Positions 2,352 to 64,000 of a stretch of DNA of 64,000 bases are shown piece by piece; the first letter of the stretch is position 1, and every line of letters starts with the position of its first letter. A model generated the notes under the pieces. That model was not told the origin of the DNA, did not search any database, and worked only from the letters and a program-made list of their open reading frames with translations. Position numbers and translations under genes: made by a program. Where the stretch lies: assembly GCF_044324785.1 (NCBI RefSeq), contig NZ_CP172127.1; one strand, given 5' to 3'. This DNA comes from Escherichia coli. GTDB lineage: Bacteria > Pseudomonadota > Gammaproteobacteria > Enterobacterales > Enterobacteriaceae.

Positions 2352-3503
2352 ATGAATGTGGTTGATTTATACTCAGGGGTAGGTGGTTTAAGCTTGGGAG
2401 CATCACGGGCAGGCTTTAACTTGGTTGGTGCCGTTGAGTTGGATAAGCATGCAATATTTTCCCATGCTCTTAATTTCCCAAATTCAACACATTTACATAA
2501 AGATGTTAGCAAACTTTCTGCTCATGATATTCTAACAGCTTGTAATGTTAGTAATATTGATTGTGTCATCGGTGGACCACCTTGTCAGGGATTTAGTACA
2601 ATTGGTAAAGGGATGGCTAATGACGTCAGAAATGAATTGTATATTCATTTTTTTAGGTTGGTGAGCGAGTTATCACCTGTTTGTTTCTTGGCAGAGAATG
2701 TTCCTGGGATAATGAATGAAAAATATGATGCAGTTAGAGAAAAAGCATTCTCATTAGTAAAAGACCGATATGTAATATTGAGCCCAATAAAAGTGAATGC
2801 GTCTAATTATGGAGCTCCTACAACTAGAACTAGGATTTTTTTTATCGGATTCAAAAAGGAATTAGCTAATTGTTTAAAAGAATCTGATTTCTTTCCTGTG
2901 CAAGATATTGAGCAAACCTTAGTTAAAGATGCTTTATACGGTATTCCTCGTGTTATAAGAAAAGAATGGCAGCAAGAGGAACAAGGCTGGCGTGAAGTTA
3001 AGATGGATAGGCAAGGATATTTTTTTGATAGACTTTGGAGTAATGTTCCGAATAATGTTGGTGATCCGGAATCTTTAGAAAAATTAAAAAAAGGGTTGGT
3101 CTCCGGTTTCTTGGGAACAATACATACAGATGAGGTTATTAATAGATATAAAAAACTCTCTTTTGGCGAAACTGATAAAATTTCACGATCTCAGAGGTTA
3201 AATCCAAATGGTTTCTGTCCGACGCTAAGGGCTGGAACTGGCAGCGATAAGGGCAGTTATCAAGCAGTTAGGCCGATCCATCCAACGCAGGCTAGAGTTA
3301 TTACTCCACGTGAGGCTGCTCGATTACAAGGTTTTCCTGATTGGTTTAGGTTTCACCCTACTAAGTGGCATAGTTTCAGGCAAATCGGTAATAGCGTTAG
3401 CCCATTAGTAGCTGAAGCTATGCTATTACCGTTATATAAATTATGTCAGTTTTCTAAAGAAGAACTTTCGAATACCACGGAATTACTTTGTAATACTCAA
3501 TAA
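2352..3503 (+). CDS. DNA (cytosine-5)-methyltransferase (383 aa)
   Basis: Canonical C5-MTase motifs in order: motif I DLYSGVGG, motif IV GGPPCQGFS, motif VI FLAENVPG, motif VIII-like TTRTRIFFIG, motif X IGNSVSP. AT-rich relative to flanking phage genes. Starts 51 bp after the gpA stop. Confidence 0.85.
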   Translation: MNVVDLYSGVGGLSLGASRAGFNLVGAVELDKHAIFSHALNFPNSTHLHKDVSKLSAHDILTACNVSNIDCVIGGPPCQGFSTIGKGMANDVRNELYIHFFRLVSELSPVCFLAENVPGIMNEKYDAVREKAFSLVKDRYVILSPIKVNASNYGAPTTRTRIFFIGFKKELANCLKESDFFPVQDIEQTLVKDALYGIPRVIRKEWQQEEQGWREVKMDRQGYFFDRLWSNVPNNVGDPESLEKLKKGLVSGFLGTIHTDEVINRYKKLSFGETDKISRSQRLNPNGFCPTLRAGTGSDKGSYQAVRPIHPTQARVITPREAARLQGFPDWFRFHPTKWHSFRQIGNSVSPLVAEAMLLPLYKLCQFSKEELSNTTELLCNTQ

Positions 3504-3915: not shown

Positions 3916-4445
3916 TGGGCAATAATCTTGAGTAAGTAAAGATTGTATTTTTTTAATCGAAAACGCCTAGGGTCTCTTTCTTGAAAATCTCTTCCTAAAG
4001 TTTCAGGAGTTGCATTTAAAGTTATTTTAAATATATCTTTTGGCTTTAACTTACTTACCAATTGAGCAATGTCATTCATTTGCTCATATATTTGGCTTGG
4101 TATGGCATAGTCAAGCCAAATTAGAGAAGGTGCAGCGAAGTCGCTTTGAGTAATAAATTCACTGCTACTTAAAGGTTCTTCTCCTAAATCAATACATGAT
4201 ATAGGTTTGTTAAATTTTTGTCGTTTATGAACGTTAGCATCTACCTCTAGAGAGATCATGTTATTGATTTTTAAAGCATTATGCAGTTGTTTGAAGTCTT
4301 CTAGAAAAGGGCCACCAAACCCGATATAAACATAATCGGATATGTTTACATAGTTGTTGAGTTTTCTGAGCAACTCAATGAATAGATTTCTTTCGACAGC
4401 TTTGTGTTGTCGAAGATGATAAGGAATACTTCCCCCAGTACTCAT
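3912..4445 (-). CDS. Hypothetical protein (177 aa), second gene of GHKL-ATPase operon
   Basis: ATG overlaps the stop of the 488-aa ORF by 4 nt (ATGA). Weak glycine-rich stretch YVYIGFGGPF could be a nucleotide- or SAM-binding loop, but no confident family assignment. Confidence 0.55.
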   Translation of the reverse strand: MSTGGSIPYHLRQHKAVERNLFIELLRKLNNYVNISDYVYIGFGGPFLEDFKQLHNALKINNMISLEVDANVHKRQKFNKPISCIDLGEEPLSSSEFITQSDFAAPSLIWLDYAIPSQIYEQMNDIAQLVSKLKPKDIFKITLNATPETLGRDFQERDPRRFRLKKYNLYLLKIIAQ

Positions 4446-5908
4446 TTTTTTGCCCTCTCTAAAAAATCTTCAAAGCAATAATTACCAATTTCTGTCGGAG
4501 GAACAGAATCATCATCGAAAATGAAAGTGGCAACAGTTTTTATCTCACTCAATCTTCTACTAAATTTTATTTGCTTTAAAGGGTCTGTTTCTTTAGGTAT
4601 TGGCAATGTTGGTTTGAAACTATTCCCACCAATGGATCTATGCACCCGAGACCATTTATCTTCAGGTACTATGCTATCTAGTTTGTCGTTTGTAAGAGGA
4701 ATTGTTTTAGATGTGGAACTAAACATTTGCTGGCGTTCTGGAGAGTTACTTTTCCATCTGTTAGTAAAATCTGTAAATATTTTCAAGCCTTCACGCATGA
4801 AATCTTTAGTAGCCAAATAGATATCAGAATTACCATCAATGCCTCTCTTGGTAGTAGTAATAGGTAATTTTTCAGCTTCATTAGATGTAAAAATAGCTAC
4901 GCCTGCAATTCCAACAAATTGTGTGTGATATTGTGGAACTCCTGCTTCACCCCATCCGGTAAGACGTGTCTTGTCCGCATGAACAACAACACGATCATTG
5001 CAGATAATAGTCCATCCGGCTTTCTCGGAAGTGTTACGTCCAGTAAGGAATGAATTTTCCTCATCTTCTGTCACAAAATCTCTATAGAATCCAACTGCGA
5101 TCTTTATTGAAACTCCATTAGTTTCACCTCTGTAAAAATAAGGCGTGATACCACCTTTTTTCGCTGACACAAGAGCTTCGGTATCGATAATTAATGATGT
5201 CAGATTTGGCTTGACTTCTATATCATTAATATAGACCTTGAAACCTTTATTAAGAATTAGGCTATAATGGTTTGAAACAGAATTGATTAATTTTTGTTGA
5301 AAATCACGATCAACTTTGAAATGGTTTTTTACATCGTCTCTGAGATCGTTAACTATAATTTTTACGCCCGTTGTTTTTAAATCGACATTACCACGTTCGA
5401 GATCTAGTTTCCAGTTTTTATCATTGGATAACCATTCTGGAGAAATTGTAACTTTAAATTCCTCGTCTTTTGTTTTACTTAATACTTGCGATGAAGTGCC
5501 CAACTTAAAAATAGCTCGCTTCATACCTATCCCATAAACACCAATGGTTGGGATATTATCTATGTCTCTTTCATTTGGTCTTCCCATTCGGAAAGCATAG
5601 CTTGTTGCTAAGCTTCCCGAAATTCCGCCACAATTATCTTCAATTGTAAAACCATCTTCATTAAAATTTATTTTTGAGTAAAAACCGTGGTATTTATTTT
5701 CTTCGTTTATTTCTTCATTCGATGATGAAATGGAACGAAGAGCGCCATCAAGACAGTTGTCTAATAAGTCAAGAATAGCATCTTGGAGTTCGATATCCCT
5801 GGTTAACATTTCTACAAAGAAACGTTTTGCAGGAAAAGCTTCGATGATATCGTTTGCCATAGTTATTTTAGTTCCATCTGTGTGATTACTTATAGATATG
5901 TTTACCAT
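4442..5908 (-). CDS. GHKL-superfamily (MutL/GyrB/MORC-like Bergerat fold) ATPase (488 aa)
   Basis: N-box AILDLLDNCLDGA, G1 box IEDNCGGISG and G2 box IGVYGIGMKRA occur in the expected order and spacing in the N-terminal ~130 residues. C-terminal ~350 residues unassigned. First gene of a 3-gene coupled operon. Confidence 0.7.
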   Translation of the reverse strand: MVNISISNHTDGTKITMANDIIEAFPAKRFFVEMLTRDIELQDAILDLLDNCLDGALRSISSSNEEINEENKYHGFYSKINFNEDGFTIEDNCGGISGSLATSYAFRMGRPNERDIDNIPTIGVYGIGMKRAIFKLGTSSQVLSKTKDEEFKVTISPEWLSNDKNWKLDLERGNVDLKTTGVKIIVNDLRDDVKNHFKVDRDFQQKLINSVSNHYSLILNKGFKVYINDIEVKPNLTSLIIDTEALVSAKKGGITPYFYRGETNGVSIKIAVGFYRDFVTEDEENSFLTGRNTSEKAGWTIICNDRVVVHADKTRLTGWGEAGVPQYHTQFVGIAGVAIFTSNEAEKLPITTTKRGIDGNSDIYLATKDFMREGLKIFTDFTNRWKSNSPERQQMFSSTSKTIPLTNDKLDSIVPEDKWSRVHRSIGGNSFKPTLPIPKETDPLKQIKFSRRLSEIKTVATFIFDDDSVPPTEIGNYCFEDFLERAKK

Positions 5909-6136
5909 AAAACAAGGTACAGATCATCGATGTTTAGCACAACATCTTGAGAGTTTCTTGGTAGCATGAGGGGGATTATGCCGCTTATTTTATGATTTTC
6001 AGCTTTGTGCTAATGCATCTAACTGGTGCATGAGTTTGCATTCGCTTTTATTTCAAAGCATGTGGGGGCGTGCTAGTGTTGGTAGAGCTCTGATTTCCTG
6101 ATGCAACTGCATTAAAACCGCCCCATGAAGCGGGCG

Positions 6137-6155
6137 GGCGAGGCGGGGAAAGCAC
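6137..6155. other. cos: P2-type cos site (19-nt cohesive end GGCGAGGCGGGGAAAGCAC)
   Basis: Exact 19-mer present in the GC-rich spacer between the cargo operon and the portal gene Q, where cos lies in P2. The P2 cohesive-end sequence is recalled from memory. Confidence 0.7.
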
Positions 6156-6297
6156 TGCGCGCTGGCGGTGGTGCTGATTTTATTTTTTCAGCGTCTCAGC
6201 GCGTCGTGACGGCGCTTAGTCTGCCCGTTGAGGCGTTGGTGTGTCTGCGGGGTGTTTTGTGCGGTGGTGAGCGTGTGAGGGCGTGATGACGGGGTGT

Positions 6298-6320
6298 AAA
6301 AAAGCCGCCCGCAGGCGGCG
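6298..6320 (-). terminator. Rho-independent terminator downstream of Q
   Basis: Minus-strand hairpin CGCCGCC-TGC-GGGCGGC followed by a T6 run, immediately after the Q stop codon. Confidence 0.65.
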
Positions 6321-6324
6321 ATGT

Positions 6325-7359
6325 TCAGCCGTTGTCAGTGTCCAGTGAGTAGTTTTTAAATCGGATGACCTCCTGACCGAGCCAGCCGTTTATCTCGCGG
6401 ATCCTGTCCTGTAACGGGATAAGCTCATTGCGGACAAAGACCTTTGCCACTTTCTCAATATCACCCAGCGACCCGACGTTCTCCGGCTTGCCGCCCATCA
6501 ACTGAAAGGGGATGCGGTGCGCGTCCAGCAGGTCTGCGGCGCTGGCTTTTTTGATATTAAAAAAATCGTCTTTCGTCGCCACTTCACTGAGCGGGATAAT
6601 TTTAATGCCGTCGGCTTTTCCCTGCGGGGCGTAGAGAAACAGATTTTTAAAGTTGTTGCGGCCTTTCGACTTCACCATGTTTTCGCGGAGCATTTCGATA
6701 TCGTTGCGATCCTGCACGGCGTCGGTGACGTACATGATGTATCCGGCATGTGCGCCGTTTTCGTAATACTTGCGGCGGAACAGCGTGGCCGACTCATTCA
6801 GCCAGGCAGAGTTAAGGGCGCTGAGATATTCCGGCAGGCCGTACAGCTCCTGATTGATATCCGGCTCCAGCAGGTGAAATACGGAGCCGGGCGCGAAGGC
6901 TGTCGGTTCGTTGAAGGACGGCACCCACCAGTAAACATCCTCTTCCACCCCACGGCGGGTATATTTTGCCGGTGAGGTTTCCAGTCTGATGACCTTACCG
7001 GTGGTGCTGTAACGCTTTTCCAGAAACGCATTGCCGAACACCAGAAAATCCAGCACAAAGCGGCTGAAATCCTGCTGGGAAAGCCACGGATGCGGGATAA
7101 ATGTCGAGGCCAGAATATTGCGTTTGACGTAAATCGGTGAGCTGTGATGCACGGCAGCACGCAGACTTTTTGCCAGCCCGGTAAAGCTGACCGGCGGCTC
7201 ATACCATCTGCCGTTACTGATGCATTCGACGTAATCCAGAATGTCACGGCGGTCGAGTACCGGCACCGGCTCGCCAAAGGTGAATGCCTCCATTTTCGGG
7301 GCGCTGGCAGTCATTTTTTTTGCCGCAGGTTGCGGTGTTTTCCCTTTTTTCTTGCTCAT
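6325..7359 (-). CDS. Q: Portal protein gpQ (344 aa)
   Basis: Size, position next to cos and terminase, and sequence are typical of the P2 portal protein. Confidence 0.9.
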   Translation of the reverse strand: MSKKKGKTPQPAAKKMTASAPKMEAFTFGEPVPVLDRRDILDYVECISNGRWYEPPVSFTGLAKSLRAAVHHSSPIYVKRNILASTFIPHPWLSQQDFSRFVLDFLVFGNAFLEKRYSTTGKVIRLETSPAKYTRRGVEEDVYWWVPSFNEPTAFAPGSVFHLLEPDINQELYGLPEYLSALNSAWLNESATLFRRKYYENGAHAGYIMYVTDAVQDRNDIEMLRENMVKSKGRNNFKNLFLYAPQGKADGIKIIPLSEVATKDDFFNIKKASAADLLDAHRIPFQLMGGKPENVGSLGDIEKVAKVFVRNELIPLQDRIREINGWLGQEVIRFKNYSLDTDNG

Positions 7360-59033: not shown

Positions 59034-60887
59034 ATGAGACGATTTCTGACGACGCTGATGATACTCCTGGTCGTGCTGGTGGCCGGGTTATCTGCGTTAG
59101 TGTTGCTGGTGAATCCGAATGATTTCCGCGACTATATGGTCAAGCAAGTTGCTGCACGTAGCGGTTATCAATTGCAGCTCGACGGGCCACTGCGTTGGCA
59201 CGTTTGGCCGCAGCTTAGTATCCTCTCCGGGCGAATGTCTCTCACTGCCCAGGGCGCGAGCCAGCCACTGGTTCGCGCAGACAACATGCGTCTGGACGTG
59301 GCGCTTTTACCACTGCTGAGTCATCAACTGAGCGTTAAGCAGGTGATGCTAAAAGGGGCAGTGATCCAACTGACGCCGCAGACGGAAGCGGTACGCAGTG
59401 AAGATGCCCCGGTTGCACCACGCGACAATACCTTGCCGGATCTGTCAGATGATCGCGGATGGTCGTTTGATATATCCAGTCTTAAGGTGGCGGACAGCGT
59501 GCTGGTGTTCCAGCATGAAGATGACGAGCAGGTGACAATCCGCAATATCCGCCTGCAAATGGAACAAGATCCCCAACATCGTGGCTCATTTGAGTTCTCC
59601 GGGCGGGTTAATCGCGATCAGCGCGATCTCACGATATCCCTTAACGGTACGGTAGATGCTTCTGATTATCCGCATGATTTAACGGCGGCTATTGAACAAA
59701 TTAACTGGCAGTTGCAGGGTGCAGATTTACCAAAACAAGGTATTCAGGGGCAGGGGAGTTTCCAGGCCCAGTGGCAGGAGTCACATAAACGCCTTTCATT
59801 TAACCAAATCAGTTTGACCGCCAATGACAGTACGCTGAGCGGGCAAGCACAGGTCACGCTGACAGAGAAACCGGAATGGCAGCTGAGGCTGCAATTCCCG
59901 CAACTGAATCTTGACAACCTCATCCCGCTTAAAGAAACAGCGAACGGTGAAAACGGTGCCGCGCAGCAGGGGCAGAGCCAATCCACGTTGCCGCGCCCGG
60001 TCATTTCTTCGCGTATTGATGAACCGGCCTATCAGGGATTGCAAGGCTTTACGGCTGATATTTTGTTGCAGGCCAGTAACGTGCGCTGGCGCGGAATGAA
60101 TTTTACAGATGTTGCCACGCAAATGACCAACAAATCGGGTCTGCTGGAAATTACTCAACTGCAGGGCAAACTTAACGGTGGGCAGGTTTCACTGCCGGGC
60201 ACGCTGGACGCGACATCAATAAATCCGCGGATAAACTTCCAGCCACGGCTGGAAAACGTTGAGATTGGTACCATTCTGAAGGCGTTTAACTATCCGATTT
60301 CGTTGACCGGAAAAATGTCACTGGCTGGTGATTTCTCCGGTGCTGACATAGATGCCGACGCATTCCGCCACAACTGGCAAGGACAGGCACATGTCGAAAT
60401 GACCGACACACGCATGGAAGGGATGAACTTCCAGCAGATGATTCAGCAAGCGGTAGAGCGTAATGGTGGTGATGTGAAGGCCGCTGAAAACTTCGATAAC
60501 GTGACGCGTCTTGACCGCTTTACCACCGATTTGACGTTGAAGGATGGCGTCGTGACGTTAAACGACATGCAAGGTCAATCGCCTGTGCTGGCGCTTACAG
60601 GGGAAGGTATGTTGAATCTGGCAGATCAAACCTGCGATACCCAGTTTGATATTCGGGTCGTGGGTGGCTGGAACGGGGAAAGCAAACTGATTGATTTCCT
60701 CAAAGAAACGCCAGTACCGCTGCGGGTTTATGGCAACTGGCAGCAACTTAATTACAGCCTGCAAGTGGATCAGTTACTGCGTAAACACTTACAGGACGAA
60801 GCGAAACGTCGCCTGAATGACTGGGCCGAGCGGAATAAAGATTCCCGCAATGGCAAAGATGTGAAGAAGTTGCTGGAGAAGATGTAA
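59034..60887 (+). CDS. asmA: Outer-membrane assembly protein AsmA (617 aa)
   Basis: N-terminal signal/anchor, then a long beta-rich domain. Position after dcd. Confidence 0.9.
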   Translation: MRRFLTTLMILLVVLVAGLSALVLLVNPNDFRDYMVKQVAARSGYQLQLDGPLRWHVWPQLSILSGRMSLTAQGASQPLVRADNMRLDVALLPLLSHQLSVKQVMLKGAVIQLTPQTEAVRSEDAPVAPRDNTLPDLSDDRGWSFDISSLKVADSVLVFQHEDDEQVTIRNIRLQMEQDPQHRGSFEFSGRVNRDQRDLTISLNGTVDASDYPHDLTAAIEQINWQLQGADLPKQGIQGQGSFQAQWQESHKRLSFNQISLTANDSTLSGQAQVTLTEKPEWQLRLQFPQLNLDNLIPLKETANGENGAAQQGQSQSTLPRPVISSRIDEPAYQGLQGFTADILLQASNVRWRGMNFTDVATQMTNKSGLLEITQLQGKLNGGQVSLPGTLDATSINPRINFQPRLENVEIGTILKAFNYPISLTGKMSLAGDFSGADIDADAFRHNWQGQAHVEMTDTRMEGMNFQQMIQQAVERNGGDVKAAENFDNVTRLDRFTTDLTLKDGVVTLNDMQGQSPVLALTGEGMLNLADQTCDTQFDIRVVGGWNGESKLIDFLKETPVPLRVYGNWQQLNYSLQVDQLLRKHLQDEAKRRLNDWAERNKDSRNGKDVKKLLEKM

Positions 60888-60939
60888 GACAAGTTATGCA
60901 GATGGCGGCGTCAATTTGTCGCCATCTGTATTTATAGTA

Positions 60940-61230
60940 CTAAGCAGCATGTGGATATTGAACTTCAATACGTTGAATATGCAATCCTGCATGAGCCATC
61001 ATGGTGATCAATTTATCGATACTAAAGATCTGGATCTTACCTCTGGCAAGTTCAGATATGCGAGGTTGAGTGACCCCTAAAGCAGACGCTGCCTGAGCCT
61101 GGCTAAACCCTTGTTGTTCAATCCAGTTATTAATGATCGTAACAAGTTCGGCACGGATCCGCATATTTTCCGCTTGTTCAGGGGTGTCACTCACCGCATC
61201 CCACACACTATCAAAGGTTTCAATTTTCAT
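60940..61230 (-). CDS. XRE-family HTH antitoxin (HigA-like), 96 aa
   Basis: HTH segment FSQAQAASALGVTQPRISELARGK. Start at the internal Met with strong AGGAG Shine-Dalgarno. Directly downstream of the toxin gene. Confidence 0.7.
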   Translation of the reverse strand: MKIETFDSVWDAVSDTPEQAENMRIRAELVTIINNWIEQQGFSQAQAASALGVTQPRISELARGKIQIFSIDKLITMMAHAGLHIQRIEVQYPHAA

Positions 61231-61513
61231 TTTTCCGCTCCTGAACAAGTTCTTTATAGCGTCGTTTGGCTAAATCAATATCCGATTGACTGGTAGTCTG
61301 TGTTTTCTTTTGAAAACAATGCAATACGTAAACCGCTTCTTCAAATTTTGCGACATACATGACGCGATAGATCCCATCAGCATCGCGAGTACGAATCTCT
61401 CGCACACCAGGGCCGATAGTTGAAAAAGGTTTCCAGTCGTATGGGTTTAACCCTTGTTGGATCCTGTCGAGACGATTCTGGAAATGCGCGTAAATCGTCA
61501 AGACTGGTATCAA
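61220..61513 (-). CDS. RelE/ParE-superfamily toxin (HigB/Gp49-like), 97 aa
   Basis: Small basic protein with C-terminal region ...GIYRVMYVAKFEEAVYVLHCFQKKTQ.... Toxin-first gene order typical of higBA modules. Confidence 0.65.
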   Translation of the reverse strand: MIPVLTIYAHFQNRLDRIQQGLNPYDWKPFSTIGPGVREIRTRDADGIYRVMYVAKFEEAVYVLHCFQKKTQTTSQSDIDLAKRRYKELVQERKNEN

Positions 61514-61609
61514 GAAAAGCCAGCTTTTTTCTCATTACTCCATCCTTAGATTATACTAAATTTTGTATAAATCAAATGCGCAGTTTGAACCTGCGCATTT
61601 GATGTTTTA

Positions 61610-63193
61610 TCACACCTCGTACTCCATCTCGCCATCCTTACGCAGCGGAATAATTTGCACCTTCTGCACGCGATGGCTTTCCACCTGCAACGTTTTAAGC
61701 AAATAATCTCCCACCTGCACTTCTTCGCCAGGTTTTGGAATGCGCTGCAAATATTCCATCAATAGCCCGGCAATGGTGTGATATTCACGTTTCTCGTCCA
61801 GCGGCAGCGGCACATATTGCACCAGATCCTCCAGCGGCATATGACCATTCGCCGTCCAGGAACCGTCCGCATTCTTCTGAATATCATGGCGGGCGTCGAT
61901 CTCTTCCACTTCGTTCGGTAAGTTACCGGCAATGGTTTCTGTGACATCACTTAATGTCACAATCCCTTCCACCGAGCCAAACTCATCCACCACAAAAGCA
62001 AAGTGTGTGCGGGCATTACGGAACTGCTCCAGGGCAGGTAACAACGGCAAGGTTTCCGGGAACACCAGCGGCTGGCGAATCAACACCCGCAGGTTGAGCG
62101 GTTCGCCGCGCAGAGACTGTTGTAGCAGGTCGATAACGTGAACAACACCGAGCAAATCTTCCGCGTCGTCACCGTCGGTAACCACCAGCCGCGTATGCTG
62201 ATTTCGCTCCAGCAACTGGCGGATTTCCTCTTCCGGCGCGTTGAGATCGATATGCTCAATATCGTGGCGCGACGTCATAATGCTGCTGACGGTACGCTGG
62301 TTAAGATTAAGGACCCGCTCAATCATCCGCCGCTCCTGCGGATTAAAGATCTGCTGGTTACCATGATCCACCAGCATGGACGCGGTTTCGGCGTCCAGTT
62401 CCGCATCTTCTTTTTGCCCGCTAAGCAGGCGCATTACCGCTTCGGTAGTCCGCTGGCGCAGCGTCTGGTTAGCGGAAAGAAAACGTCGCCGGTTAAAGAT
62501 AGCCAACTGATTGAGCGCCTCGATCATCACCGAGAAACCAATGGCAGCGTACAGGTAGCCTTTCGGAATGACGAAGCCGAAACCTTCCGCCACCAGGCTA
62601 AAGCCAATCATCAACAGGAAGCTTAAGCAGAGAATAACGATGGTCGGGTGACTGTTAACAAATTGCGTTAACGGCTTGCTGGCCATCAACATCAGGCTAA
62701 TAGCGATAACCACGGCGGCCATCATGACCAGTAAATGGTCGACCATCCCGACGGCGGTAATCACCGAGTCGAGTGAGAAGATGGCGTCCAGTACCACAAT
62801 TTGTGTCACCACCCCCCAGAACTTCGCACCTTTGCGTTGTGTGGGGTTATTGCTGTCTTTCCCCTCCAGCCGTTCGTTCAGCTCCATCGTGGCTTTGAAC
62901 AGCAGGAAGAAACCACCAAACAGCATGATTAAGTCGCGGGCGCTAAAGGTAAACGAGCGGAAGCTGAACAGCGGTTGAGTCAGGGTGACCAGCCAGGAGA
63001 TAGACGCCAGCAGTAACAGGCGCATTAACATCGCCAGCAGCAGCCCGGTAACCCGTGCGCGGTCGCGCTGCTTCGGCGGTAGTTTTTCGGCGAGGATGGC
63101 AATAAAGACCAGGTTATCAATGCCGAGGACCAGTTCGATCACAATCAGCGTGATTAACCCGGCCCAGATAGACGGATCGGCAATCCATTCCAT
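61610..63193 (-). CDS. yegH: TerC-family membrane protein with CBS/CorC domains, YegH (527 aa)
   Basis: Start trimmed to [12 protein letters not shown]. TerC-like transmembrane N-terminus and CBS pair in the C-terminal half. Confidence 0.85.
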
Positions 63194-63661
63194 AGTAAGT
63201 ACAAAACCTATTCGTTGTATGACAAATGTCACAATTCGATCATGGATAAATCGGGGCAAAAATGCAATGTTGCAGCACTATTTATCTCATATTATTTGAG
63301 GGTAATAACCTCACATTATCCCTGAATTAAAAGTGGTAATAATAAAACATTATTTAAGAAATATCGCATGTGGAGACACAGTATTAAATATTGTCAACCT
63401 AAAGAAACTCCTAAAAAACATATTGAATGACACTTAATATAATTCTTAAAAATAGCCAATTGCCGAATTGTTACCTTGCCTGCTATTCCGTTAGCTGTAA
63501 CACTTCCTCCTGCATTATTGGAGAGCCAATATTCAATTACCATAATGTCACCTTATATTCGGAAGTTAATTTCCGCAATAACCCTTTCTCATCAACGATT
63601 GTATGCAGAGAGGGTTTGAAAAATTGAGCTAAATCAGTGTATTGGTAGCTAAAAAGCCAGG

Positions 63662-63673
63662 GGCGGTAGCGTG
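63662..63673 (+). promoter_or_regulatory. ops element (GGCGGTAGCGTG) within a JUMPstart sequence upstream of wza
   Basis: Exact ops 12-mer inside CAGTGTATTGGTAGCTAAAAAGCCAGGGGCGGTAGCGTG (63635..63673). Expected RfaH-dependent antitermination site of the colanic acid operon leader. Confidence 0.7.
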
Positions 63674-63851
63674 TCTGGATGCCTGAAAGACCAGTCTGAA
63701 TTATTCTGTCAATAGCCTGCGGATGAAATCAATTTTTTTAGGACTGATGCCAGTTAAATTTTTATTCAATTAACTGCAAGGTAAATGTGCATGGCGACAT
63801 TGCTATTAATAGTGCACAGGATAATTACTCTGCCAAAGTGATAAATAAACA

Positions 63852-64000
63852 ATGATGAAATCCAAAATGAAATTGATGCCATTATTGGTGTCAGTAACCT
63901 TGATAAGCGGTTGCACAGTACTTCCGGGCAGCAATATGTCTACGATGGGTAAAGACGTCATCAAACAGCAGGACGCTGATTTCGATCTCGACAAAATGGT
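63852..64000 (+). CDS. wza: Capsular polysaccharide export lipoprotein Wza, 5' end only (truncated by window)
   Basis: MMKSKMKLMPLLVSVTLISGCTVLPGS with lipobox ISGC. The ORF runs off the window end. Confidence 0.85.
   Translation, partial: MMKSKMKLMPLLVSVTLISGCTVLPGSNMSTMGKDVIKQQDADFDLDKM

What the first reader, a model, noticed from the sequence alone, without database searches (positions are those of the whole stretch)
60940..61513. HigB/HigA-like toxin-antitoxin pair between asmA and yegH
A toxin-first pair (RelE/ParE-fold Gp49-like toxin, then XRE-HTH antitoxin with a strong Shine-Dalgarno) sits in an interval that I recall being gene-free in K-12. This suggests a strain-variable addiction or abortive-infection module in the core backbone.
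Basis: partly seen in the sequence, partly recalled or inferred. Interest (0 to 1): 0.4.

Follow-up and report, generated by a model that had tools for sequence, protein, structure and literature searches.

The report
Decayed HigBA-like toxin-antitoxin pair
Between asmA and yegH this genome carries a known type of toxin-antitoxin cassette (toxin gene first, Gp49/HigB-like, then an HTH antitoxin), but a 23-base deletion has broken the toxin gene, leaving an ordinary decayed module with only the antitoxin intact.

Summary
The pair is real and lies on the minus strand. The antitoxin (60940-61230, 96 aa, Pfam HTH_37) is intact. The toxin (Pfam Gp49/PF05973, RelE/ParE fold) is not.

The toxin gene starts at ATG 61535. 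A 23-bp deletion between two 10-bp direct repeats (CTCGACAGGA) shifts the frame after codon 24. RefSeq marks the same allele as 'frameshifted' in other strains.

Among 5,426 complete E. coli genomes:
- 732 carry the undeleted junction.
- 57 carry this 23-bp deletion, on at least four haplotype backgrounds.
- 1 carries a 23-bp duplication at the same repeats.
- 117 have lost the toxin's 5' half but keep the antitoxin.

A draft genome has no base difference from the window over 6.85 kb except for these 23 bp, and it has the intact toxin.

The family is the known Tad-Ata / Gp49-type HigBA group, which is common on plasmids. In this genome the module cannot act as an addiction or abortive-infection system. 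I found no evidence for a phage-defence role. This is an ordinary finding. The only mildly new point is that the deletion recurs at a microhomology hotspot.

The parts
60940..61230 (-). Antitoxin gene, intact (96 aa, HTH_37 / HigA-Ata type). It has its own GGAG Shine-Dalgarno, and its ATG overlaps the toxin stop by 11 nt.
   Evidence: Pfam PF13744 scores 77.8 bits against a cut-off of 27. The protein is 100% identical to O157:H7 WP_000687872.1. The closest solved structure is 2a6c, E=3e-14.
61220..61535 (-). Toxin pseudogene (Gp49/PF05973, HigB/Tad type). It is 316 nt instead of 339 nt, with a frameshift after codon 24.
   Evidence: Alignment with the intact O157 allele shows a 23-bp gap. Three-frame translation shows the break. 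Re-inserting the 23 bp restores a 112-aa protein identical to WP_001227701.1. PGAP labels the same allele 'frameshifted' in EC16, GN04275, O157:H7 4276 and ST540.
61462..61471 (-). The single remaining copy of the 10-bp direct repeat CTCGACAGGA, which is the deletion junction. Intact alleles have two copies 13 bp apart. One strain has three.
   Evidence: this is the only direct repeat of 8 bp or more in the gene.
61377..61535 (-). The residual ORF that is actually in frame with the toxin start. It encodes 24 native residues plus 28 out-of-frame residues, then a stop.
61550..61569 (-). Candidate promoter -10 (TATAAT, 61550-61555) overlapped by the inverted repeat TATAC-N8-GTATA (61552-61569). 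This is the probable antitoxin operator.
   Evidence: The palindrome was found. The repeat half-sites and the -10 are conserved upstream of homologous pairs in Salmonella, Pantoea and Yersinia, while the flanks do not align. The consensus promoter scan did not call a -35.
61571..61603 (-). Stem-loop just downstream of yegH, a likely yegH terminator. It is part of the variable cassette.
60896..60931 (.). Hairpin between the convergent asmA and antitoxin 3' ends, a probable bidirectional terminator.
   Evidence: I4: 12-nt arms, 92% complementary.

Best explanation
The asmA-yegH spacer holds a horizontally acquired type II toxin-antitoxin cassette of the Gp49-domain HigBA / Tad-Ata kind.

How the intact form works (as in O157:H7, APEC O1 and E. 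coli W). One promoter, overlapped by a TATAC-N8-GTATA operator, drives a 112-aa RelE-fold toxin and then a 96-aa HTH_37 antitoxin. The toxin is most likely a ribosome-dependent mRNA endonuclease like M. tuberculosis HigB1. The antitoxin is inferred to neutralise the toxin and to repress the operon.

What happened in this window. Slippage or recombination between two 10-bp direct repeats removed 23 bp of the toxin gene. Translation from the toxin start now ends after 52 codons. The catalytic part, including the conserved Lys84, is out of frame. The promoter/operator, the antitoxin's Shine-Dalgarno and the antitoxin gene are untouched. The locus is therefore a toxin pseudogene plus an orphan, presumably still autoregulated, antitoxin. 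It has no addiction or killing capacity.

Shown: gene families, fold, frameshift, allele census, recurrence of the deletion, and conservation of the operator-like repeat.

Inferred: RNase mechanism, neutralisation, autoregulation, and loss of function of the truncated product.
For: - Pfam Gp49 and HTH_37 both score above their cut-offs.
- The 23-bp gap is flanked by CTCGACAGGA repeats.
- PGAP gives 'frameshifted' notes on identical alleles.
- The AF2 model has pLDDT 91.9. Foldseek's top hits are HigB1 7awk/7nbu (TM 0.68), then other HigB/ParE/RelE toxins.
- hhalign puts the family-invariant K84 on HigB1 K95, the residue mutated in 7awk.
- Census: 732 undeleted junctions, 57 deletions, 1 duplication, 117 5'-truncated toxins with the antitoxin kept.
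- The draft genome GCA_958309045.1 has 0 mismatches with the window over 6.85 kb apart from the 23 bp, and it has the intact toxin.
- Literature: COG4679/COG5606 is the Tad-Ata system, with the toxin predicted to be a RelE-like interferase (PMC2701414). GP49-domain toxins are always encoded first. A. baumannii HigB2 is an RNase, and its HigA2 represses the promoter (PMC5906591).
Against: - No experiment was possible, so toxicity of the intact allele and non-toxicity of this allele are both inferred.
- A TTG-initiated 97-aa ORF (61513-61220) still encodes residues 30-112, including all putative catalytic residues. Weak expression of an N-terminally truncated protein is not formally excluded.
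- The consensus scan found no -35 element on the minus strand.
- Sequence similarity to solved HigB toxins is weak: phmmer E=0.01 to 6af3 and hhalign probability 47%.
Confidence: 0.86

Rival explanations
1. A fully functional toxin-antitoxin (addiction or abortive-infection) module in this genome.
For: Both Pfam domains are detectable. The antitoxin, Shine-Dalgarno and operator-like repeat are intact. 732 other genomes have an undeleted junction.
Against: The toxin start codon and the Gp49 domain are in different frames because of the 23-bp deletion. PGAP calls this allele a pseudogene. There is no convincing PADLOC defence-system match.
Confidence: 0.04
2. The truncated 97-aa ORF (TTG 61513) or a shorter internal product is a functional 'mini-toxin' that the antitoxin still controls.
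For: The ORF keeps residues 30-112, including the invariant E54, R56, R65, H80 and K84. The Pfam match covers profile positions 11-90 of 90.
Against: - It lacks strand beta1 (residues 4-7), helix 11-16 and half of helix 20-34 of the predicted fold.
- It has a TTG start with no Shine-Dalgarno in the sequence upstream.
- Most of the 120 listed homologues, out of 7,804 found, are 108-125 aa; the shorter ones looked at are disrupted alleles.
- Ribosomes loading at the real start terminate 147 nt before the antitoxin.
Confidence: 0.04
3. The deletion is an assembly or sequencing artefact, or a culture subpopulation, and the organism actually has the intact gene.
For: An otherwise identical draft genome (0 mismatches in 6.85 kb) has the intact gene. 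Direct repeats can mislead assemblers.
Against: The same 23-bp deletion occurs in 57 independent complete genomes on at least four backgrounds. It is therefore a real, recurrent allele. A clean 23-bp loss is not a typical sequencing error.
Confidence: 0.05

Closest known systems
Tad-Ata (Paracoccus aminophilus pAMI2; IncC plasmids), i.e. COG4679/DUF891(Gp49) toxin + COG5606 HTH antitoxin
   Same: The two domain families are the same (PF05973 + PF13744). The operon is toxin-first with overlapping genes. Protein sizes are about 110 and 96 aa. The association is plasmid or mobile: 637 plasmid records hold homologues. The family is described in PMC2701414, PMC7157771 and PMC8265657.
   Different: This copy is chromosomal and fixed in one intergenic site of E. 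coli. I did not compare it directly with the pAMI2 proteins. The copy in this window has a frameshifted toxin.
Mycobacterium tuberculosis HigB1 (Rv1955; PDB 7awk, 7nbu)
   Same: It is the best structural match (TM 0.68, probability 1.00). The C-terminal motif aligns, with K84 on the catalytic K95. It is a Gp49-type toxin encoded before its HTH antitoxin.
   Different: Sequence identity is only 19-21%. HigB1 belongs to a three-gene TAC system with a SecB-like chaperone, and there is no chaperone gene here (stated from general knowledge).
Acinetobacter baumannii HigBA2 (pAB120) and Vibrio cholerae HigBA2
   Same: Both are GP49-domain or HigB2-type RelE-fold toxins with an HTH antitoxin that represses its own promoter (PMC5906591). 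HigB2 structures are among the fold hits (5ja8 and 8a0x).
   Different: Sequence similarity is low, with no phmmer hit. The operator sequence here (TATAC-N8-GTATA) is specific to this enterobacterial subgroup.
E. coli K-12 HigBA (YgjN-YgjM) / Proteus vulgaris HigBA
   Same: The gene order is toxin first, and the logic is a RelE-superfamily toxin plus an HTH antitoxin.
   Different: The toxin Pfam family is different (PF05015, not PF05973; stated from general knowledge and from PMC5906591, which notes little similarity). This pair is not an orthologue.

Membership tests
Gp49-domain HigB/Tad toxins (PF05973, RelE/ParE superfamily) | Significant match to PF05973 above the gathering score | tested here: met
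   90.2 bits against a cut-off of 23.9, E=9e-26, even for the out-of-frame remainder. All listed homologues carry PF05973.
Gp49-domain HigB/Tad toxins (PF05973, RelE/ParE superfamily) | RelE/ParE fold (N-terminal strand and helices packed on an antiparallel sheet) | tested here: met
   The intact allele was modelled with pLDDT 91.9. Foldseek's top hits are HigB1, HigB, ParE2, HigB2, RelE and YafQ.
Gp49-domain HigB/Tad toxins (PF05973, RelE/ParE superfamily) | Conserved catalytic lysine equivalent to HigB1 K95 | tested here: met
   K84 is invariant in 41 homologues and aligns to K95. The hhalign probability is only 47%, so this is moderate support.
Gp49-domain HigB/Tad toxins (PF05973, RelE/ParE superfamily) | Uninterrupted reading frame of about 110 codons in this genome | tested here: not met
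   A 23-bp deletion causes a frameshift after codon 24 and a stop at 61377.
Gp49-domain HigB/Tad toxins (PF05973, RelE/ParE superfamily) | Growth arrest or mRNA cleavage on expression | not testable with these tools
   This needs an expression experiment.
HigA/Ata HTH_37 antitoxins | PF13744 domain in a protein of about 95 aa encoded immediately after, and overlapping, the toxin gene | tested here: met
   77.8 bits against a cut-off of 27. The overlap is the 11 nt ATGAAAATTGA. The same arrangement is seen in the Salmonella, Pantoea and Yersinia loci.
HigA/Ata HTH_37 antitoxins | Binds an operator in its own promoter and neutralises the cognate toxin | tested here: inconclusive
   The inverted repeat TATAC-N8-GTATA overlapping the -10 is conserved in four genera. 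That is suggestive only, because binding and neutralisation were not tested.
Functional type II TA addiction module (in this genome) | Both toxin and antitoxin genes intact | tested here: not met
   The toxin is a pseudogene. The antitoxin is intact.
Known anti-phage defence systems (PADLOC-DB v2) | Significant match of the proteins to a defence-system model | tested here: not met
   The toxin's best hit is NsnC at E=1.4e-3 over 47 residues. The antitoxin's best hit is the candidate PDC-M64C at E=6e-5.

The most novel reading that the evidence does not exclude
The two 10-bp repeats inside the toxin gene act as a built-in, recurrently used off-switch. Deletion has occurred at least four times, and a potentially reversible duplication once. 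This would let lineages shed the toxin while keeping an orphan antitoxin that is selectively retained, for example as 'anti-addiction' immunity against the many plasmid-borne Tad/HigB relatives. The recurrence is shown here. Adaptive value, antitoxin retention by selection and cross-neutralisation are untested.
Probability: 0.12. Interest if true: 0.4.

Novelty: new member of a known kind. Interest (0 to 1): 0.2.

Why it matters
It matters little on its own. The result corrects an over-reading: automatic or by-eye ORF calling sees a 'toxin' where there is only a frameshifted remnant.

It also gives a clean natural series of TA decay at one chromosomal site in which the toxin is lost first: intact, then 23-bp deletion or duplication, then 5'-truncated toxin, then a bare remnant. 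For people who count TA systems, or who link them to persistence or phage defence in E. coli, it shows that presence of the pair does not mean function. About 19% of genomes that carry the antitoxin here have a visibly disrupted toxin.

Tried and rejected
- Full-text literature searches for this specific locus found nothing ('asmA' + 'yegH' + 'toxin-antitoxin', and WP_001227701).
- NCBIfam gave only sub-threshold hits (TIGR02683 at 27 bits against 62.85).
- phmmer and a 41-sequence profile against PDB found only a marginal HigB hit (6af3, E=0.01 and 0.0016). Fold comparison was needed.
- Rfam found nothing meaningful in the cassette (STnc40, E=0.81). In the K-12 spacer it found only a sub-threshold REP-derived naRNA4 match.
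- The promoter scan found no minus-strand sigma-70 match.
- I tried to identify the source strain. No complete E. coli genome is more than 98.3% identical over 59440-63500. Only a draft assembly matches exactly.
- I considered a plasmid-borne origin of the exact E. coli pair. The three near-identical 'plasmid' records are chromosome pieces that carry asmA-dcd-udk.
- I counted the Q83* toxin allele. It is absent from complete E. coli genomes.
- I did not run the expensive genome contigs or metagenome scans because the question did not justify them.

Full report
**What is in the sequence.**

The interval between the stop codons of the convergent genes asmA (59034-60887, +) and yegH (61610-63193, -) is 722 bp. 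It carries two small minus-strand genes.

The downstream gene (60940-61230, 96 aa) matches Pfam HTH_37 (PF13744, 77.8 bits, E=5e-22). The upstream ORF matches Gp49/DUF891 (PF05973, 90.2 bits, E=9e-26).

The coordinates need correcting. Translating the three minus-strand frames gives a different picture:
- An ATG at 61535, preceded by AAGGATGGAG, opens a frame reading MRKKLAFLDTSLDDLRAFPESSRQ... This frame stops at 61377 after 52 codons.
- The Gp49-matching sequence (...LDRIQQGLNPYDWKPF...) is in another frame.

**The toxin is a pseudogene here.**

A megablast of the interval against 5,426 complete E. coli genomes found the locus in about 910 of them. Most matches were 764 bp long against 741 bp in the window.

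In O157:H7 FRIK944 the toxin is an intact 339-nt, 112-aa gene (WP_001227701.1), followed by the 96-aa HTH protein. Alignment shows that the intact gene contains the 10-bp repeat CTCGACAGGA twice, 13 bp apart. The window has one copy and lacks the 23 bp in between.

Re-inserting the 23 bp gives a protein identical to the O157 toxin. The window's antitoxin is already identical to the O157 antitoxin.

RefSeq/PGAP annotates the same 316-nt allele as 'frameshifted' in EC16, GN04275, O157:H7 4276 and ST540.

Strain 06-00048 has the reciprocal lesion, a 23-bp duplication giving three repeat copies, and is also annotated as frameshifted.

**Allele census and recurrence.**

I searched with junction-specific short queries. 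Here 'intact' means only that the repeat region is undeleted; lesions elsewhere in the gene were not screened. The counts among 5,426 complete genomes are:

| Allele at asmA-yegH | Genomes |
|---|---|
| Undeleted two-repeat junction | 732 |
| 23-bp deletion | 57 |
| 23-bp duplication | 1 |
| Toxin 5' half replaced by K-12-type spacer DNA, antitoxin kept | 117 |
| Only a 104-bp remnant (WB61) | 1 |

These sum to 908, which matches the 906-910 genomes with any part of the cassette.

The deletion is homoplasic. SNP counts over 3,501 ungapped columns are:
- Window against an intact draft genome (GCA_958309045.1): 0 SNPs.
- O157:H7 4276 (deleted) against FRIK944 (intact): 1 SNP.
- GN04275 (deleted) against every other sequence: at least 65 SNPs.
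- The EC16/ST540 group (deleted) against the rest: at least 106 SNPs.

So there were at least four independent events. In the window's lineage the event is very recent: the draft genome shows 0 mismatches over 6.85 kb apart from the 23 bp.

The repeat pair is the only direct repeat of 8 bp or more in the gene. It is absent from the Salmonella homologue, so it is a chance microhomology hotspot of the E. coli allele.

Other routes of decay exist outside the complete-genome set:
- A Q83* allele, in one case with a frameshifted antitoxin as well.
- A deletion allele with a second 1-bp deletion that restores the frame, giving a 104-aa product.

**The K-12 state.**

In MG1655 yegH ends at 2139485 and asmA ends at 2139759.

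The 273-bp K-12 spacer shows no homology to the cassette. Homology stops at the two stop codons. The spacer contains a REP-like element, seen as a sub-threshold naRNA4 match. The polymorphism is therefore a replacement of the whole spacer, not a simple insertion.

The cassette has 41-45% G+C against 50-56% in the flanks, which fits foreign origin. Near-identical copies on E. coli 'plasmid' records are mislabelled chromosome pieces.

**What family it is and how the intact form should work.**

A search of the large protein collection found 7,804 homologues. The 120 listed all carry PF05973. Most are 108-125 aa; the shorter ones are disrupted E. coli alleles.

A 41-sequence alignment gave an AlphaFold model with mean pLDDT 91.9. 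Its elements are strand 4-7, helices 11-16 and 20-34, four strands, and a C-terminal helix 91-111.

Foldseek against the PDB ranks the hits as follows:
- M. tuberculosis HigB1, first (7awk, and 7nbu on the ribosome with cspA mRNA; TM 0.68).
- Then S. pneumoniae HigB, ParE2, V. cholerae HigB2, RelE and YafQ.

Profile alignment places the family-invariant K84 on HigB1 K95, the residue mutated in those entries. E54, R56 and R65 fall on E66, R68 and R77.

The pair of families (COG4679 + COG5606) is the published Tad-Ata system, predicted to be RelE-like interferases (PMC2701414). Gp49/HTH_37 pairs ride on Tn3-family transposons (PMC7157771) and IncC plasmids (PMC8265657). In A. baumannii the GP49-type HigB2 degrades RNA, and HigA2 represses the promoter with the toxin as co-repressor (PMC5906591).

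Homologues of this toxin occur on 637 plasmid records and in 23 phage records. The 79%-identical Salmonella diarizonae copy sits next to TraW/TraX-like conjugation genes.

Upstream of the toxin start, an exact TATAAT is overlapped by the inverted repeat TATAC-N8-GTATA (61552-69). The same half-sites and -10 are conserved upstream of the Salmonella, Pantoea and Yersinia pairs, while everything around them is unalignable. I take this as the antitoxin's operator. This is an inference, and the consensus scan found no -35.

**Consequence for this genome.**

Ribosomes starting at 61535 would make a 52-residue nonsense peptide.

The remaining frame (residues 30-112) has only a TTG with no Shine-Dalgarno upstream. 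It would also lack strand beta1, the first helix and half of the second.

The antitoxin keeps its own GGAG and start codon.

The most likely state is therefore a dead toxin plus an expressed, self-repressing orphan antitoxin, with no addiction, persistence or abortive-infection capacity. PADLOC gave no convincing defence-system match, so the abortive-infection suggestion has no support even for intact alleles.

**Verdict.**

The kind of system is well known and already annotated generically in RefSeq. This particular chromosomal pair is apparently uncharacterised.

The only modestly new point is the recurrent, microhomology-mediated inactivation of the toxin with retention of the antitoxin. 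Interest is low.

Noticed in passing
L003 (E. coli 06-00048, NZ_CP015229.1) 1841-2202: This is the reciprocal allele: a 23-bp duplication at the same CTCGACAGGA repeats, giving three copies with a 1-nt change in the middle one. It also frameshifts the toxin. In principle it can revert by slippage. It was seen in 1 of 5,426 genomes.
   Followed up: partly
L021 (GCA_019985215.1) 2501-2815; protein P0029: This is a 23-bp deletion allele with a second 1-bp deletion 14 nt downstream that restores the frame. The result is a 104-aa protein in which EIGYQLDRIQQGL is replaced by DATRV. It could be a chance event or a partial revertant. Its function is unknown.
   Followed up: partly
L017-L019 (e.g. GCA_900449645.1), same asmA-yegH locus; protein P0059: This lineage has a toxin nonsense mutation (Q83*, CAA to TAA) and many extra substitutions. 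In L017 the antitoxin is frameshifted too. The allele is common in the large collection (451 blocks) but absent from all 5,426 complete E. coli genomes, so it may belong to Shigella or another unsampled lineage.
   Followed up: partly
L006 (EcE.ESBL.COL) 3011-3400; L004 (K-12) 5487-5759: 117 genomes (including SMS-3-5) carry a hybrid spacer. It has the antitoxin and the toxin 3' half, joined at toxin codon ~57 to K-12-type spacer DNA plus about 170 bp of further unmatched sequence. It is unresolved which spacer type is ancestral and how the hybrids arose.
   Followed up: partly
L013 (Salmonella enterica subsp. diarizonae GCA_007463675.1) 4001-6504: Two different Gp49/HTH pairs lie within 2.5 kb of each other. 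They sit next to TraW/TraX-like and exclusion-determining genes on a conjugative element.
   Followed up: no
phage records MW314858.1 etc.: Mycobacterium abscessus prophages encode RelE-like toxins 58% identical to this enterobacterial toxin over 94% of its length. That is unusually high for such distant hosts.
   Followed up: no
NZ_CP083887.1 (L025), NZ_CP114132.1, CP137936.1: These records are labelled as E. coli plasmids, but L025, the one examined, carries asmA-dcd-udk with the cassette. They are probably chromosome fragments mis-assigned during assembly; the two larger records (438 and 365 kb) were not examined.
   Followed up: partly
window 63200-64000: This is an AT-rich stretch (33-40% G+C) upstream of yegH with no long ORF. 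I did not examine it.
   Followed up: no
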